Below, piece after piece: positions 18,771-28,467 of a DNA stretch of 32,000 nt. Numbering within the stretch: position 1 is the first letter of the stretch; every line of letters begins with the position of its first letter. The notes beneath the pieces are model-generated. The model saw only the letters and a program-made list of their open reading frames with translations. It made no database searches and was not told the DNA's origin. Made by a program: the position numbers and the translations under genes. Source of the DNA: Sinorhizobium meliloti (lineage in GTDB: Bacteria; Pseudomonadota; Alphaproteobacteria; Rhizobiales; Rhizobiaceae); the NCBI RefSeq assembly GCF_017876815.1, contig NZ_JAGIOS010000001.1, forward strand, positions 3,060,001-3,092,000, read 5' to 3'.

Positions 18771-19364
18771 TTAATCCTGATTACCTTTGAGGCCGCCATC
18801 TTGGCTGCCTTTGCCGTTGTCCTGGTTGCCGTTGTCCTGGCTGCCCTTGCCGTTGTCCTGGCTGCCTTTGCCGTTATCCTGGCTGCCCTTGCCATTGTCC
18901 TGGCTGCCCTTGCCGTTGTCCTGGTTGCCCTTGCCATGGTCTTGGTTACCCTTGCCGGTGTCTTGGCCACCGCCACCGCCGGGATCGCCGCCGCCGCCGC
19001 CGCCGCCACCGCCGCCACCGCCGCCACCGCCGCCGCCGCCACCGCCGCCGGGATTACCACCGCCGCCGTCATCGCCGTTCAGGTTGCGAGGACCGCTGTC
19101 GGTGGAGGTCGTGGAAAACGAATTTCCGATGGCCGCCGTGGAGAGGGGCGGGCATTGCTCTATTTGCCCGGCCGTGAGGATATCCGCTCTGTTCTGAGCC
19201 ATGCAGCATGCTTCGTAATTGGCGTCCGTCAGAGGGCTGCACTGCTCAGCCACGAGCATGGGGCCCGTAAGGTTCTGGGCGTGCGCGGGAATCGTTGTCG
19301 AAGTTGAAAAACCGACCATCAGAGCCAGGCCGGTGCTCGTAAGAAATACATCCAGGGTTTTCAT
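18771..19364 (-). CDS. Secreted protein with a Cys-containing N-domain, a poly-Gly tract and GKG[SN]QDN heptad repeats
   Basis: Signal peptide MKTLDVFLTSTGLALMVGFSTSTTIPAHA. GGAGA RBS. Four Cys in the first 45 mature residues. A Gly-dominated stretch (about 35 Gly, broken only by N, P, D and P) leads into GGGGGQDTG, followed by (GKGSQDN)n. Confidence 0.6.
   Translation of the reverse strand: MKTLDVFLTSTGLALMVGFSTSTTIPAHAQNLTGPMLVAEQCSPLTDANYEACCMAQNRADILTAGQIEQCPPLSTAAIGNSFSTTSTDSGPRNLNGDDGGGGNPGGGGGGGGGGGGGGGGGGGGGDPGGGGGQDTGKGNQDHGKGNQDNGKGSQDNGKGSQDNGKGSQDNGKGSQDNGNQDNGKGSQDGGLKGNQD
18801..19070 (-). repeat. Coding 21-nt tandem repeats (18801-18965) followed by a (GCC/ACC)n triplet tract (18966-19070)
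   Basis: Units such as GGCTGCCCTTGCCGTTGTCCT repeat about 8 times. An almost pure CCG/CCA triplet run encoding poly-Gly on the minus strand follows. Confidence 0.9.
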
Positions 19365-24418: not shown

Positions 24419-26233
24419 ATGAGAAGAATTCGGATTTCAGCGCGTCTTTACGCGCTGGTCGCGTTTGCGCTTTTGACGATGGCGGCGGCGCTGACCTTCG
24501 GACTGATCCAGGCGCAGGACAAGCTGGTTGCCGAGCGCAAGGCCATGCTCGCGGCGATGAACGAGAACGCGATCACGGTGTTCGACGCCTATCACGCCCA
24601 GGAAAAGGCCGGAACGCTCACGCGCGAGGAGGCGCAGGGCTGCGCTCTGGAGGCGATCCGGGCGATGCGCTATCAGGACAGCGGCTATTTCTGGGTGAAC
24701 GATATGCATCCGAAGATGGTGATGCATCCGATCAAGCCCGAACTCGACGGCGCCGACCTGACGCAGAACAAGGACCCGAACGGCAAGTTCCTGTTCGTGG
24801 AATTCGTCAAGACGGTGCAGGCGCACGGCAAGGGCTTCGTCGATTATTACTGGCCGAAGCCCGGCGCCGACGAGCCCGTGCTGAAATATTCGCATGTGGC
24901 CGGTTTCGAGCCCTGGGGATGGGTGGTCGGCACCGGTGTTTATGCAGACGATCTCGCCGCCATGTTCCGCGAGCGCGCCTGGCAGATGGCCGGCATTCTG
25001 GTCGCGGCAGCGCTCGCGATCCTCATGGCGGCCTTGGCGATCGTGCGCAGCGTCGTTCGGCCCATCGAAAAGCTGAAGGTCTCGATGCGGGCGATCGCAG
25101 ACGAGGACCTTTCCTCGGATGTTCCGGAAACCGATCGCGCCGACGAGATCGGGCAGATGGCGAAGGTGCTCGTCGTCCTGCGCGACTCCGTCAGGGAGCG
25201 CCTCGAACTGCGATCGCGCGAGGCGGAGCAGCAGGACCGCCTCGACGCAGAACGGCGCGGCCACGAGGAGCGCCAGCGTACGACTGCCGCAACCCAGGCC
25301 GAGGCGATGGAGACGCTCGGCGCCGCGCTCGAGCGGCTGGCAAACGGCGACCTCACCGCCGCGGTCGCCCGGATCGCGCCGGAATATGCCAAGCTCAAGG
25401 ACGACTTCAACACGGCGGTCGCCGCGCTTCGCGACGTCATCGGCGCCATTTCCCGATCCACCGAAATCGTCCATGGCAGTGCCGCCGATATATCAGAGGC
25501 GGCCAACAACCTGTCGCGCCGGACCGAACAGCAGGCGGCGGCTCTTGAAGAGACAGCCGCGGCTCTTGACGAGATCACCTCCACCGTACGTCATGCGTCG
25601 GGTCGTGCCCTCGAGGCGCGCGACATGGTCGACGAGACGAAGGCGAGCGCCGCAAAATCCGGTGATATCGTGCGCAACGCGATCGATGCCATGGGGCGGA
25701 TCGAAGCCTCATCGAGCCGGATCAGCCAGATCATCGGCGTGATCGACGAGATCGCCTTCCAGACGAACCTGCTGGCGCTGAATGCAGGCGTCGAGGCGGC
25801 GCGGGCAGGGGAGGCCGGCCGCGGTTTCGCCGTCGTTGCCCAGGAGGTCCGCGAACTCGCGCAACGCTCGGCCGGCGCGGCAAAGGAAATCAAGGCGCTG
25901 ATAGGCACCTCGGTGAAGGAAGTCGGTGCCGGCGTCGAACTCGTCCGCTCGACGGGTGATGCGCTGATGGAGATCGATGCTCTGGTCAACCGTGTCAACG
26001 AGCAGGTGGCCGCGATTGCGACCGCTGCTCGGGAACAGGCGACCGGACTGCAGGAGGTCAACACGGCCGTCAACAGCATGGACCAGATGACGCAGCAGAA
26101 CGCGGCAATGGTCGAGGAGACGACCGCGGCAAGCCAGACACTGGCGCAGGAAAGTCGTGAGCTGAAGGCGCTGCTCGAACAGTTCAGGCTCGAGGAACGG
26201 GGCGCGCAGCCGGCCTATGGCAGGGCAGCGTAA
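24419..26233 (+). CDS. Methyl-accepting chemotaxis protein with a periplasmic single-Cache (sCache_2-like) sensor and a HAMP domain
   Basis: TM1 [16 protein letters not shown]. Cache motifs [35 protein letters not shown] and [11 protein letters not shown]2 plus HAMP. Highly conserved signalling hairpin [42 protein letters not shown]. Confidence 0.92.
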
Positions 26234-26466
26234 ACGATAACAGCAAGCGTAGCGGCGACAAGGCCTGCGTTCGGAAGGACGTGGGCCTCTTCGTTAAACC
26301 TGCGTCGCTCGGGCGGGTGAGCCTGCTCCTGTCGGTGGTGAGTGGATGGCGCATCTCGCGGGAGTTGACGCGTGGCCGCAAGACAGGCGAGATGGTGCGA
26401 CGGAAGGACGGTCGCTATCGCGCGCCGATCCGGCCGCATCCGAGATGCCAGTCAAGGGGGAGACCT

Positions 26467-27021
26467 GTGTTGCCTTTCAAGCGTTTCATCATGAAGTCTG
26501 CCGCCATCTTCCTGGCCGCCGCCGGCTTCCTTTCTGCCTGTACCGTGGTCGTCGACGAACCGCGCCCCGGTCCGGGGCCGATCCGCCCGCCAGGCCCGCA
26601 AATGTGCACGATGGAATTCGCGCCGGTCTGCGGCGAGCGCGGCAATCGCATGCGGACCTTCCCCAATGCCTGCCAGGCACGCGCCGACGGCTTCCGTGTC
26701 GTTCATCGCGGCGAATGCCGCCCGGCATCCCGTCCGCCGGAAGAACAGGCCTGCACGCGCGAGTTTTCGCCGGTGTGCGGTCAGCGCGGCCCGAGAAGGC
26801 AGACCTTCCCCAATTCATGCGTGGCGCGCGCCGAGGGTTTTCGCGTCGTCGCACCCGGCGAATGCCGCCGCGAGGATGATCGCCCGCAGCAGCCGCAATT
26901 CTGCACCCGGGAATTCGCGCCGGTCTGCGGCGAGCGCAACGGACGATCAAGAACATTCCCGAATGCCTGCGAGGCACGGGCGGACGGGTTCCGCGTGGCT
27001 CATCCCGGGGAATGCCGTTAA
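26467..27021 (+). CDS. Lipoprotein with three tandem Kazal-like serine-protease-inhibitor domains
   Basis: Lipobox FLSAC. Three ~50-aa repeats of the form C-T-[MR]-E-F-x-P-V-C-G-x(8)-F-P-N-x-C-x-A-R-A-x-G-F-R-V-x(5)-C-R. GTG 26467 has a GGGGGAG RBS; an alternative ATG at 26491 lacks an RBS. Confidence 0.8.
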   Translation: MLPFKRFIMKSAAIFLAAAGFLSACTVVVDEPRPGPGPIRPPGPQMCTMEFAPVCGERGNRMRTFPNACQARADGFRVVHRGECRPASRPPEEQACTREFSPVCGQRGPRRQTFPNSCVARAEGFRVVAPGECRREDDRPQQPQFCTREFAPVCGERNGRSRTFPNACEARADGFRVAHPGECR

Positions 27022-27041
27022 CCGGACGAAAACCGACGTTG

Positions 27042-27080
27042 AAAAGGCCCGCATTCGTAAGGATGCGGGCCTTTTCTTTT
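27042..27080 (+). terminator. Rho-independent terminator after the Kazal-like gene
   Basis: Stem GGCCCGCAT / ATGCGGGCC, 8-nt loop, followed by TTTTCTTTT. A-rich upstream flank. Confidence 0.85.
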
Positions 27081-27252
27081 GTGCCCGCTCGCCTGATTTG
27101 GCGTGCCGCCGGCAAGGCTTCGTTTACCACGTTTGCTTAAATTGCCTTGCAAAGCCGACTTTCTCGACCGAGCGCCCGTTTGGCGACATTCCGCACGTTC
27201 ATTCTCGGCTGTGGGCAGGCGGCGCACGGACAAGGCCGAAGCTTTGTCATGG

Positions 27253-28467
27253 ATGAAGGCGGCAATCAGTATGGCGTATGTTTCTCTTCTTCATCGTCCA
27301 TTGGCGGCGCTGCTGTTGTCCATTCCACTCGTTGCCTGCACGACCGACGTGCTTGCGCCACCGGCCAGGATCGACGGGAGCTCTCGTGTCGGCGCGATCA
27401 GGCCGGCGCCTGCAGCCATGCCGGAGCAGGAAGTCGCTGCCTATCCGTCGTCAGAGCCGGTCGCCATGGCCAGCCAGACCTCGGTTGCCCCGGTTTCCGA
27501 TAATGCGGCCGTTGCGCCGCAGGGCCAGGTCGCCGCGGCCGGATCGATGACGGTTCCGCCCGAGGGGGTGAACATGGACGCCATGCTCGGCGTCGAACCG
27601 GTCGTCGGCCTGGCGCAGGAGCAGGCCGGTGAAATCGCCGAGGGGAATACGACGCAGCCGGTCGTGGCCGGTATCGGCGACAGCGATGTGCGCCAGCTTG
27701 CCGGAGCGCCGCAGCCGGTACCGGTGGCTGAGGCGAATCCCGGCTATGATCCCGACCTGCCGCCCCTTGCGCCCGCGCAGAGCGCGGCCGAGGAAGCGAA
27801 TCGAACGCATGTACTCCAGCCGCAGCGGGCGACGCGCACCGAGCAGCCGCAGCAGGTCGCTTTCATACCGCGCGCCCGCAGCCCGGTGTCGACGCCGGAA
27901 TATACCGGCGAAATGCCGGGCTCGGAGGTCGCGTGCAGGCAGCGGTTGAAGAAGCTCGGGGTCGTCTTCCGCGACGTTCCGCGAGTCCATAACGGACCGT
28001 CCTGTGGCATCGACTACCCGATCGAACTCAGCGGCCTTTCCGGCAATATCGGCGTCAAGCCCGCGGTGAAGCTCAATTGCCAGGTGACGGAAGCCTTCGC
28101 CAAATGGGTGAAGTATGAGCTCGCGCCATCGTCGCGCTACCGTTACTGGTCGGGCGTCAAGACGATCAAGCCGCTCGGCGGCTATTCCTGCCGGACGATG
28201 AACTCCCGGCGCGGCAATCCCATGTCGGAACATGCGCGCGGCAACGCGATAGACGTCGGCAAGTTCGTGCTGAAAAACGGCAAGGAAATCGATGTACGCA
28301 GGAAAGGTCTCTTCGCTTTCCGCGAAAGAGGGCTCTTGAAGGCCGTGCGCACCGATAGCTGCAAGTATTTCAACACCGTGCTCGGCCCCGGCAGCGATCC
28401 TTTCCACAAAGACCATTTCCACTTCGATCTGAGGACGCGCAAATCCGCCTACCGGCATTGCGACTAG
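27253..28467 (+). CDS. Extensin-like lipoprotein: Pro/Ala/Gln-rich linker plus a C-terminal domain with LAS-type (VanY/M15-like) metal-binding motifs
   Basis: Lipobox PLVAC. About 230 aa of low-complexity linker. The C-terminal ~190 aa (CRQRLKKLGVVF...SEHARGNAIDV...HKDHFHFD) match the bacterial extensin-like C-terminal family. An alternative start is ATG 27271. Confidence 0.8.
   Translation: MKAAISMAYVSLLHRPLAALLLSIPLVACTTDVLAPPARIDGSSRVGAIRPAPAAMPEQEVAAYPSSEPVAMASQTSVAPVSDNAAVAPQGQVAAAGSMTVPPEGVNMDAMLGVEPVVGLAQEQAGEIAEGNTTQPVVAGIGDSDVRQLAGAPQPVPVAEANPGYDPDLPPLAPAQSAAEEANRTHVLQPQRATRTEQPQQVAFIPRARSPVSTPEYTGEMPGSEVACRQRLKKLGVVFRDVPRVHNGPSCGIDYPIELSGLSGNIGVKPAVKLNCQVTEAFAKWVKYELAPSSRYRYWSGVKTIKPLGGYSCRTMNSRRGNPMSEHARGNAIDVGKFVLKNGKEIDVRRKGLFAFRERGLLKAVRTDSCKYFNTVLGPGSDPFHKDHFHFDLRTRKSAYRHCD

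What the first reader, a model, noticed from the sequence alone, without database searches (positions are those of the whole stretch)
26467..27021. Bacterial lipoprotein composed of three reduced-cysteine Kazal-like inhibitor domains with predicted P1 residues Met, Arg, Arg
Each repeat reads C-T-[M/R]-E-F-x-P-V-C-G-...-F-P-N-x-C-x-A-R-A-x-G-F-R-V-...-G-E-C. This lines up with the reactive-site region of classical Kazal domains (turkey ovomucoid third domain: C-T-L-E-Y-R-P-L-C-G-...-N-K-C-...-G-K-C). Under that alignment the Cys2, Cys3, Cys4 and Cys6 equivalents are present, while the Cys1-Cys5 pair is absent. The P1 residue, the second residue after Cys2, would be Met in domain 1 and Arg in domains 2 and 3. 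That predicts one chymotrypsin/subtilisin-directed unit and two trypsin-directed units. Kazal domains are mainly eukaryotic. In oomycete plant pathogens they block host apoplastic proteases. A membrane-anchored triple Kazal in a likely plant-associated bacterium could protect the envelope against host or competitor serine proteases.
Basis: partly seen in the sequence, partly recalled or inferred. Interest (0 to 1): 0.7.

Follow-up and report, generated by a model that had tools for sequence, protein, structure and literature searches.

The report
Three-headed Kazal-type lipoprotein of Sinorhizobium
This Sinorhizobium meliloti gene encodes a membrane-tethered protein made of three small Kazal-type protease-inhibitor domains that each lack one of the usual three disulfide bonds. 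Databases already label its relatives as Kazal proteins, but I found no experimental study of any bacterial member.

Summary
Window 26467..27021 (+) is a real 184-codon gene with a conserved GTG start, a Shine-Dalgarno sequence, a lipoprotein signal peptide (L-S-A-C) and its own terminator. It carries three repeats spaced C-x7-C-x13-C-x14-C. Pfam Kazal_2 and Kazal_1 both match above their curated cut-offs, with three stretches each.

An AlphaFold2 model gives three high-confidence hairpin-helix-strand domains. These superpose on leech tryptase inhibitor (LDTI) and on Galleria silk inhibitor GmSPI-2. GmSPI-2 is a proven subtilisin inhibitor that, on my reading of its sequence alignment, has the same four cysteines (Cys1 and Cys5 missing).

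Across 309 homologous domains the reactive-loop scaffold and the loop-supporting Asn are almost invariant, while P1 varies (Arg, Met, Gln, Leu, Phe).

The family is widespread in Rhizobiaceae and Phyllobacteriaceae, including genera I know as non-symbionts. NCBI already names members [quoted passage not shown]. No protease gene is a conserved neighbour, and I found no experimental literature.

It is most likely a tethered canonical serine-protease inhibitor. Its target, location and any role in symbiosis are untested. I rate it a new member of a known kind, of moderate interest.

The parts
26262..26287 (+). Hairpin directly after the stop codon of the upstream chemoreceptor gene. It is the likely terminator that separates that gene from the Kazal gene.
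   Evidence: GGCCTGCG...CGTGGGCC followed by TCTTCGTT. The hairpin is conserved, and a perfect palindrome, in five other species (alignment A2). The terminator scan did not report it because the loop exceeds 8 nt.
26365..26393 (+). Tentative promoter: TTGACG (26365-26370), a 17-nt spacer, then CGAGAT (26388-26393).
   Evidence: TTGAC is conserved in all six aligned species. The second hexamer is weak, and the sigma-70 scan found nothing. This is inference only.
26454..26462 (+). Shine-Dalgarno sequence AAGGGGGAG, 4 nt before the GTG start.
   Evidence: Purine-rich equivalents are conserved in the six-species alignment.
26467..27021 (+). Coding sequence: 184 codons, GTG start, TAA stop. Encodes the pre-lipoprotein with three Kazal-type domains.
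   Evidence: GC by codon position is 0.68/0.60/0.75, as expected for a coding frame.
26467..26538 (+). Signal peptide, residues 1-24: basic n-region (K5, R6, K10) followed by a hydrophobic core.
   Evidence: Read directly from the sequence. Homologues have the lipobox Cys at the same distance from the start.
26530..26541 (+). Lipobox L-S-A-C. Cys25 is the predicted lipid-attachment site and the +2 residue is Thr.
   Evidence: A lipobox is present in 112 of 121 family members. LSAC and LAAC are the commonest forms, and +2 is Thr in 87 of 112.
26542..26604 (+). Pro/Gly-rich tether (TVVVDEPRPGPGPIRPPGPQM) between the lipid anchor and domain 1.
   Evidence: pLDDT is 57-77 and no secondary structure is predicted.
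26605..26718 (+). Kazal-type domain 1 (residues 47-84). Predicted P1 is Met49 (26611-26613).
   Evidence: P1 is Met in 21 of 21 Sinorhizobium/Ensifer orthologues.
26752..26865 (+). Kazal-type domain 2 (residues 96-133). Predicted P1 is Arg98 (26758-26760).
   Evidence: P1 is Arg in 17 and Met in 4 of the 21 orthologues.
26902..27015 (+). Kazal-type domain 3 (residues 146-183). Predicted P1 is Arg148 (26908-26910).
   Evidence: P1 is Arg, Met, Gln, Ser or Gly among the 21 orthologues.
27041..27076 (+). Intrinsic terminator with a 16-bp stem followed by TTTTGT, 20 nt after the stop codon.

Best explanation
The gene is a single-gene transcription unit of the Sinorhizobium meliloti chromosome. Its product is exported, and its signal peptide is cut at the lipobox. 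It is lipidated on Cys25 and oxidised in the periplasm to give two disulfides per domain (Cys2-Cys4 and Cys3-Cys6).

The mature protein is about 17.8 kDa and basic. It is three compact Kazal-type domains strung on flexible proline-rich linkers and held to a membrane by an N-terminal lipid and a tether of about 20 residues.

Each domain presents a canonical, substrate-like reactive loop (P3 Cys, P2 Thr, P1, P1' Glu, P2' Phe/Tyr, P4' Pro, P5' Val), braced by an invariant Asn. It should inhibit serine proteases of the chymotrypsin/trypsin (S1) or subtilisin (S8) clans by the standard tight-binding mechanism.
- Domain 1 (P1 Met) would favour chymotrypsin-, elastase- or subtilisin-like enzymes.
- Domains 2 and 3 (P1 Arg) would favour trypsin-like or basic-residue-specific enzymes.

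The most likely role is to protect the cell envelope against serine proteases that arrive from outside (competitors, predators, hosts), as the periplasmic inhibitor ecotin does in other bacteria.

What is shown: gene structure, family membership, predicted fold, cysteine pattern, and the conservation pattern of the loop.
What is inferred: lipidation, disulfide pairing, inhibitory activity, specificity, cellular location and biological role.
For: - Kazal_2 and Kazal_1 HMM hits lie above the curated cut-offs, three per protein.
- The AlphaFold2 model gives pLDDT of about 95 for each domain, with hairpin, helix and strand three times over.
- Foldseek's best hits are all Kazal inhibitors: rhodniin 1tbq_R (E=2e-3), LDTI 1an1_I (TM 0.85, rmsd 1.6 A, 40% identity) and GmSPI-2 4hgu (TM 0.75, 41% identity).
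- In the HMMER alignment, GmSPI-2's four cysteines fall on the same four positions. GmSPI-2 strongly inhibits subtilisin and proteinase K (PMC4169406).
- In 309 domains from three-domain family members, the four Cys and the Asn two residues before Cys4 never vary. That Asn is the equivalent of ovomucoid Asn33, which braces the loop (my own knowledge). P2 Thr, P1' Glu, P2' Tyr/Phe, P4' Pro and P5' Val are nearly invariant. P1 and P3' are the variable loop positions, at 1.8 and 2.0 bits of entropy.
- A lipobox is present in 112 of 121 members.
- The gene has its own terminator, and a hairpin separates it from the upstream gene.
- Ecotin is a precedent for a periplasmic inhibitor that protects against outside proteases (PMC9904509).
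Against: - No inhibition data exist for any bacterial member that I could find.
- No protease gene is a conserved neighbour, so the context does not point to a target.
- Domain-specific P1 residues are fairly stable within the genus. Domain 1 is always Met. That fits fixed targets, possibly the cell's own, better than an arms race.
- If the protein faces the periplasm, outside proteases would first have to cross the outer membrane.
- Some Kazal-like domains (follistatin, SPARC, agrin) are not inhibitors.
Confidence: 0.6

Rival explanations
1. It inhibits one of the bacterium's own periplasmic or secreted serine proteases (an HtrA/DegP-type S1C enzyme, a trypsin-like S1 enzyme or a subtilisin-like S8 enzyme). 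It would act as a safety catch or regulator, as AprI/Inh-type and SSI-type inhibitors do for their partner proteases.
For: Domain-specific P1 residues are conserved (domain 1 Met in 21 of 21; domain 2 mostly Arg), which fits fixed partners. The family is kept in free-living as well as symbiotic genera. A membrane tether would hold the inhibitor where envelope proteases act.
Against: No protease gene is linked to it in any of the four genomic contexts found. Known self-protection inhibitors are usually encoded next to their protease (my own knowledge). HtrA proteases prefer aliphatic P1 residues, not Arg, and are not known targets of Kazal inhibitors (my own knowledge).
Confidence: 0.2
2. It is a symbiosis factor that blocks legume apoplastic, infection-thread or symbiosome serine proteases (subtilases). 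This is the reader's proposal, by analogy with the oomycete inhibitors EPI1 and EPI10.
For: The organism is a legume symbiont. EPI1 and EPI10 show that Kazal inhibitors can target plant subtilase P69B (PMC1236909, PMC8364246). A two-disulfide Kazal domain can be a stable subtilase inhibitor (PMC1236909).
Against: The family is chromosomal and is present in Chelativorans, Nitratireductor, Aquamicrobium, Hoeflea marina and Shinella, which to my knowledge are not legume symbionts. A lipoprotein is not obviously exposed to the host. I found no literature linking it to symbiosis.
Confidence: 0.12
3. It is a non-inhibitory Kazal-like module that serves as a binding, adhesion or structural element of the envelope, as in follistatin, SPARC or agrin.
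For: Kazal-like domains without inhibitory function exist (my own knowledge). The protein is very Arg-rich (26 Arg in 160 residues, pI 8.9), which could favour binding to acidic envelope polymers.
Against: The canonical loop residues and the loop-bracing Asn are almost invariant in 309 domains. The variable positions are exactly the primary specificity positions P1 and P3'. That pattern is what an inhibitor would show.
Confidence: 0.07
4. The ORF is not a real gene. The true product would be the overlapping 196-codon ORF 26666..27256, which several S. meliloti annotations call.
For: That ORF is deposited as a hypothetical protein (for example AGA06878.1) and is seen on 137 contigs.
Against: The alternative ORF runs through the strong terminator and has no coding-type GC pattern (0.61/0.64/0.67, against 0.68/0.60/0.75 for the Kazal frame). 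The Kazal frame is conserved with Pfam hits across at least 80 species.
Confidence: 0.01

Closest known systems
[quoted passage not shown]
   Same: A four-cysteine Kazal domain with two disulfides. In the HMMER alignment its cysteines fall on the same four positions (Cys2, Cys3, Cys4, Cys6), so I read it as also lacking Cys1 and Cys5. It has the same compact helix-to-C-terminus spacing, the loop C-T-x-E-[WYF]-x-P-V-C-G, and ends in G-E-C. Identity is 41% and TM 0.75. It is a proven inhibitor of subtilisin and proteinase K (PMC4169406).
   Different: It is an insect, secreted, single-domain protein with P1 Thr. Its hairpin between Cys3 and Cys4 is 10 residues, against 13 here. It has no lipid anchor and no tandem array.
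LDTI, leech-derived tryptase inhibitor, a non-classical Kazal (PDB 1AN1, 1LDT, 2KMO)
   Same: The best structural match per domain: TM 0.85, rmsd 1.6 A over 40 residues, 40% identity. The spacing from Cys4 to Cys6 is the same. It has a basic P1 (Lys) and targets trypsin-like enzymes.
   Different: LDTI keeps the Cys1-Cys5 disulfide (C-x-C at the N-terminus and C-x3-C after Cys4). Here those positions are Gln and Ala (the Gln position is my own count).
Classical Kazal inhibitors (ovomucoid third domain, SPINK1/PSTI); MEROPS family I1; Pfam PF00050 and PF07648
   Same: HMM membership. The reactive-loop sequence C-T-P1-E-Y-x-P-x-C-G and the T-[YF]-x-N-x-C motif are shared. Like ovomucoid, it is a tandem multi-headed protein with a different P1 in each head.
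   Different: Classical domains have six cysteines and about 55 residues. This one has four cysteines and 38 residues. It is also bacterial and lipid-anchored.
Atypical two-disulfide Kazal domains (LEKTI domains, Phytophthora EPI1a)
   Same: Only two disulfides, and EPI1a is still a stable inhibitor (PMC1236909).
   Different: A different disulfide is missing: Cys3-Cys6 there, Cys1-Cys5 here.
Ecotin (MEROPS I11), the periplasmic serine-protease inhibitor of Gram-negative bacteria
   Same: The proposed mode of use: an inhibitor in the envelope that protects the cell from outside serine proteases, including in plant-associated bacteria (PMC9904509).
   Different: An unrelated fold. Ecotin is a soluble dimer with very broad specificity and is not lipidated.

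Membership tests
Kazal-type inhibitor domain (Pfam PF07648/PF00050; MEROPS I1) | A significant match to the family HMMs above the curated gathering score. | tested here: met
   Kazal_2 scores 54.2 bits (cut-off 22.8) and Kazal_1 49.4 bits (cut-off 21), three stretches each. All 120 listed homologues carry both Pfam domains.
Kazal-type inhibitor domain | The fold: a beta-hairpin, a short alpha-helix and a third strand. | tested here: met
   The AlphaFold2 model has pLDDT of about 95 per domain with strand-strand-helix-strand repeated three times. The top Foldseek PDB hits are all Kazal inhibitors, with TM up to 0.85. This is a prediction, not an experiment.
Kazal-type inhibitor domain | Six cysteines paired 1-5, 2-4 and 3-6. 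| tested here: not met
   There are only four cysteines per domain, and they align with Cys2, Cys3, Cys4 and Cys6. The Cys1 and Cys5 positions are Gln and Ala. Accepted family members with two disulfides exist (GmSPI-2, PMC4169406; EPI1a and LEKTI, PMC1236909). So this places it in an atypical subgroup and does not exclude it.
Kazal-type inhibitor domain | A canonical reactive-site loop (P3 Cys, P2 Thr/Pro, P1, P1' Glu, P2' Tyr, P4' Pro) braced by the conserved Asn before Cys4. | tested here: met
   The loop reads C-T-[M/R]-E-F-x-P-V-C. The Asn is invariant in 309 of 309 domains. P2, P1', P2', P4' and P5' are nearly invariant, and P1 and P3' are variable.
Kazal-type inhibitor domain | The classical Kazal sequence signature: 10 residues between Cys3 and Cys4, a Tyr, then C-x(2,3)-C. 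I recalled this as PROSITE PS00282 from memory. | tested here: not met
   The Cys3-Cys4 spacing is 13 in 285 of 288 domains (14 in the other 3), and there is no Cys5. The pattern itself is recalled, not retrieved.
Kazal-type inhibitor domain | Tight-binding inhibition of S1 or S8 serine proteases, with slow cleavage at P1-P1'. | not testable with these tools
   This needs enzyme assays. No published assay of a bacterial member was found.
Bacterial lipoprotein | An N-terminal signal peptide ending in a lipobox [LVI][ASTVI][GAS]C. | tested here: met
   The N-terminus is VLPFKRFIMKSAAIFLAAAGFLSA|C. A lipobox is found in 112 of 121 family members. Lipidation itself is not testable here.
Ecotin-like envelope protection (functional analogy only) | Periplasmic location, and protection of the cell against outside proteases. 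| not testable with these tools
   Only export and a lipid anchor are predicted. Which membrane, and which face, is unknown.

The most novel reading that the evidence does not exclude
This would be the first characterised bacterial canonical Kazal inhibitor. It would be a lipid-tethered, three-headed inhibitor whose heads have distinct fixed specificities (Met, Arg, Arg). It would sit at the rhizobial surface and neutralise specific legume subtilases or trypsin-like proteases (or those of soil predators and competitors), and so influence infection or survival in the nodule. Its two-disulfide, long-hairpin domain would be a distinct bacterial Kazal subtype.
Probability: 0.15. Interest if true: 0.6.

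Novelty: new member of a known kind. Interest (0 to 1): 0.35.

Why it matters
Kazal inhibitors are among the best understood protease inhibitors in animals, and in oomycetes they are known virulence factors. I found no experimental work on a bacterial one.

This family is conserved across two large families of soil and plant-associated alphaproteobacteria, including the model symbiont S. meliloti. The protein is small, easy to express, and has clearly predicted specificity residues, so the inhibitor hypothesis is directly testable. A positive result would add a new class of envelope protease defence to rhizobia and give a bacterial model of a two-disulfide Kazal scaffold.

There is also a practical point. 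In S. meliloti the gene is often annotated with a wrong start, in a wrong frame, or fused to the neighbouring chemoreceptor. This may have hidden it from omics studies.

Tried and rejected
- NCBIfam: no family model matches. The only row is noise at E=4.2.
- Literature: eight full-text searches for bacterial, rhizobial or periplasmic Kazal proteins returned only eukaryotic work or irrelevant hits.
- Search for a conserved protease partner: I clustered the neighbouring genes of 80 loci. Four different contexts appeared.
  - Chemoreceptor, Kazal, Extensin-like_C gene in Sinorhizobium, Ensifer and Pararhizobium.
  - An M24-type aminopeptidase-like gene, a lipoprotein gene, a PRPP-synthetase-like gene, then Kazal in Rhizobium, Shinella and Neorhizobium.
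  - A BA14K-like gene and a cold-shock gene, then Kazal in Mesorhizobium.
  - RecR, a lytic transglycosylase, Kazal, then a prepilin peptidase in Chelativorans.
  - None contains a serine protease. I named these neighbours by reading their sequences, apart from the Pfam labels.
- Exact look-up of the 184-, 183-, 176-, 208-, 209-, 218- and 234-residue versions failed. Only the 246-residue over-extended version and the wrong-frame ORF are on record.
- Exhaustive profile search: 6906 representatives at E<=1e-3. The top of the list is dominated by long, apparently eukaryotic multi-Kazal proteins, and the library has no names, so it gave no taxonomy. It did show the same x7/x13/x14 spacing in other, apparently bacterial, larger proteins. 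Some of these retain the C-x-C and C-x3-C positions of Cys1 and Cys5.
- Disulfide geometry could not be measured, because the model coordinates are not exposed.
- Concerted evolution of the repeats: domains within a protein are about as similar (0.62-0.69) as same-position domains between proteins (0.60-0.63). I did not pursue this.
- The sigma-70 promoter scan found nothing.

Full report
**1. The observation**

Window 26467..27021 (+) is an open reading frame of 184 codons that starts at GTG and ends at TAA.

The start is well supported:
- AAGGGGGAG lies 4 nt upstream of the GTG.
- In an alignment of six Sinorhizobium/Ensifer species the GTG and the purine-rich box are conserved.
- The DNA further upstream has low identity and indels that are not multiples of three, so it is non-coding.

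The same alignment shows a conserved hairpin directly after the stop codon of the upstream chemoreceptor gene. A 16-bp-stem terminator follows the Kazal stop codon at 27041-27076. The gene is therefore its own transcription unit.

GC content by codon position (0.68/0.60/0.75) resembles that of the neighbouring genes. The overlapping 196-codon ORF at 26666..27256 shows no such pattern.

**2. Anatomy of the protein**

- Residues 1-24 are a signal peptide ending in the lipobox L-S-A-C.
- After Cys25 comes a Pro/Gly-rich tether of 21 residues.
- Three 38-residue repeats follow (residues 47-84, 96-133, 146-183), separated by Pro/Arg/Glu-rich linkers.
- Every repeat is spaced C-x7-C-x13-C-x14-C.
- The mature protein is 160 residues, about 17.8 kDa, with pI 8.9 and 26 Arg.

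**3. Family membership**

Pfam Kazal_2 (E=1.6e-14, 54.2 bits against a cut-off of 22.8) and Kazal_1 (E=4.4e-13, 49.4 bits against 21) each match three times.

Sequence search of the PDB finds only Kazal proteins: ovomucoid, LDTI, the Anemonia elastase inhibitor, infestin, SPINK1, RECK and Galleria silk inhibitor 2.

The alignments place the four cysteines on Kazal Cys2, Cys3, Cys4 and Cys6. LDTI's Cys5 aligns with Ala. I counted that its Cys1 position (two residues before Cys2) falls on Gln. GmSPI-2 ([36 protein letters not shown]) aligns cysteine for cysteine with these domains. P1, the second residue after Cys2, is Met49, Arg98 and Arg148.

**4. Predicted structure**

An AlphaFold2 model built on an 80-sequence alignment has pLDDT of about 95 in each domain and 57-77 in the tether and linkers. 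Each domain is a hairpin, a short helix and a third strand.

Foldseek against the PDB returns, at the top:
- rhodniin, a two-domain Kazal inhibitor (E=2e-3);
- LDTI (TM 0.71-0.85, rmsd 1.6-1.9 A, 36-40% identity);
- GmSPI-2 (TM 0.75, 41% identity);
- a termite Kazal inhibitor and greglin.

Everything below these is noise.

GmSPI-2 has four cysteines forming two disulfides, resembles LDTI, and is a strong inhibitor of subtilisin and proteinase K (PMC4169406). This cysteine arrangement is therefore compatible with full inhibitory function. It differs from the better-known atypical Kazal domains of LEKTI and Phytophthora EPI1a, which lack Cys3-Cys6 (PMC1236909).

**5. Conservation pattern**

A search of 5.8 billion protein clusters gave 519 relatives at E<=1e-3, and the best 120 all carry the two Pfam Kazal domains. 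Among those 120 plus the query:
- 103 have three domains, 12 have two and 4 have four;
- 112 of 121 have a lipobox, and the +2 residue is Thr in 87 of 112;
- in 288 domains from full-length members the spacing is x7/x13/x14 in 285.

In 309 aligned domains the four Cys and the Asn two residues before Cys4 never vary. P2 Thr, P1' Glu, P2' Tyr/Phe, P4' Pro and P5' Val are nearly invariant. P1 (Arg 173, Met 84, Gln 22, Leu 12, and others) and P3' are the variable positions of the loop.

From my own knowledge of the ovomucoid third domain, that Asn corresponds to Asn33, whose side chain hydrogen-bonds the loop, and P1 is the main determinant of specificity. A conserved scaffold with a variable P1 is the pattern expected of working canonical inhibitors.

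Within Sinorhizobium/Ensifer:
- domain 1 P1 is Met in 21 of 21 orthologues;
- domain 2 is Arg in 17 and Met in 4;
- domain 3 is mostly Arg, but also Met, Gln, Ser or Gly.

**6. Organism, distribution and context**

The window is Sinorhizobium meliloti. The neighbouring chemoreceptor is an exact S. meliloti protein, and one S. meliloti assembly is identical to the window over 7.8 kb.

A scan of one genome per species found 253 relatives. The best 80 are all Rhizobiaceae or Phyllobacteriaceae: Sinorhizobium/Ensifer, Rhizobium, Pararhizobium, Neorhizobium, Shinella, Mycoplana, Mesorhizobium, Chelativorans, Nitratireductor, Aquamicrobium, Pseudaminobacter, Kumtagia and Hoeflea. To my knowledge several of these are not legume symbionts.

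NCBI already names many members [quoted passage not shown].

Gene order around the gene differs between genera. There are four contexts and none includes a serine protease. In S. meliloti the neighbours are UvrB, small membrane and thioesterase genes, an sCache/HAMP chemoreceptor upstream, and an Extensin-like_C lipoprotein downstream.

**7. How it most likely works**

The evidence supports an exported, lipid-anchored protein carrying three independent canonical inhibitor heads on flexible linkers. I infer, but have not shown, the following:
- Each head binds the active site of an S1 or S8 serine protease like a substrate and is cleaved extremely slowly.
- Met at P1 directs head 1 to chymotrypsin-, elastase- or subtilisin-like enzymes.
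- Arg directs heads 2 and 3 to trypsin-like or basic-specific enzymes.

The tether would keep the inhibitor at the envelope.

The most economical biological reading is protection of envelope proteins from foreign serine proteases, as shown for ecotin (PMC9904509). The main rival is control of an endogenous envelope protease. The stability of the domain-specific P1 residues fits that rival, but the absence of any linked protease gene argues against it.

A non-inhibitory role is unlikely given the conservation pattern.

**8. Comparison with what is known, and novelty**

By sequence, predicted fold and loop, this is a Kazal domain of the non-classical, LDTI-like compact type. It lacks the Cys1-Cys5 bridge and carries a three-residue longer hairpin. 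Its closest characterised relative is GmSPI-2.

It fails the six-cysteine criterion, as GmSPI-2, LEKTI and EPI1a also do. I therefore file it as an atypical member rather than excluding it.

The exhaustive profile search shows the same long-hairpin spacing in other, apparently bacterial, larger proteins. Some of these still have the Cys1 and Cys5 positions. This suggests the rhizobial form arose by loss of that bridge, which is an inference.

Because automated annotation already recognises the family, the identification itself is not new. What I did not find in the literature I could search is any experiment on a bacterial member, or a description of its particular lipoprotein, three-head, two-disulfide architecture.

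Verdict: a real feature, correctly read by the first stage. It is a new member of a known kind, of moderate interest.

Noticed in passing
window 26281..27256 (both frames): The Kazal gene is inconsistently annotated in S. meliloti. The protein collection holds four versions: an over-extended 246-residue product starting at GTG 26281, inside the upstream terminator hairpin (P0299, 317 contigs, unnamed); a wrong-frame 196-residue 'hypothetical protein' at 26666..27256 (AGA06878.1 and others, 137 contigs); a frameshift hybrid of the two frames (P0135); and an 868-residue chemoreceptor-Kazal fusion named 'methyl-accepting chemotaxis protein' (WP_234843652.1). The 184-residue product is not on record as an exact sequence. 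The fusion pulled the 246-residue version into the chemoreceptor cluster, which is why no S. meliloti hit appeared in the homology search.
   Followed up: yes
window 27253..28467 (+): The downstream gene encodes another lipoprotein (signal ...LVAC) with a long Pro/Ala/Gln-rich region and an Extensin-like_C domain (PF06904). Its C-terminus carries SEHARGNAID and HKDHFHFD motifs, which to me resemble the zinc ligands of LAS-type (VanY/M15-like) cell-wall metallopeptidases. It sits next to the Kazal gene only in Sinorhizobium, Ensifer and some Pararhizobium, and a terminator separates the two.
   Followed up: partly
window 18771..19364 (-): An ORF with a signal-peptide-like N-terminus, a run of about 25 glycines, and tandem GKG[SN]QDN repeats. 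This is an unusual low-complexity secreted protein.
   Followed up: no
window 26605..27015; family alignment: The three domains within one protein are about as similar to each other (0.62-0.69 identity) as same-position domains are between proteins (0.60-0.63). In this protein, domains 1 and 3 are 82% identical in protein and 78% in DNA. The cause could be gene conversion between repeats or simply very strong constraint.
   Followed up: partly
loci L001-L080 versus the window: The Kazal protein diverges faster than its conserved neighbours. For example it is about 71% identical in Ensifer adhaerens, where the chemoreceptor is about 86%, and 51-56% in Pararhizobium and related strains, where the chemoreceptor is 75-79%.
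   Followed up: no
proteins P0258, P0260, P0279, P0281, P0228 (exhaustive profile search): Large proteins with bacterial-looking signal peptides contain several Kazal-type domains with the same x7/x13/x14 spacing. Several retain the C-x-C and C-x3-C positions of Cys1 and Cys5. Long-hairpin Kazal domains therefore seem to exist well outside the Rhizobiales, in quite different architectures. Their organisms could not be identified with the tools.
   Followed up: partly
window 24419..26233 (+): The upstream gene is an sCache_2/HAMP/MCPsignal chemoreceptor. It is identical to UniProt Q9F5N0 of S. meliloti and is conserved next to the Kazal gene across Sinorhizobium, Ensifer and Pararhizobium, although a hairpin separates the two genes.
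   Followed up: partly
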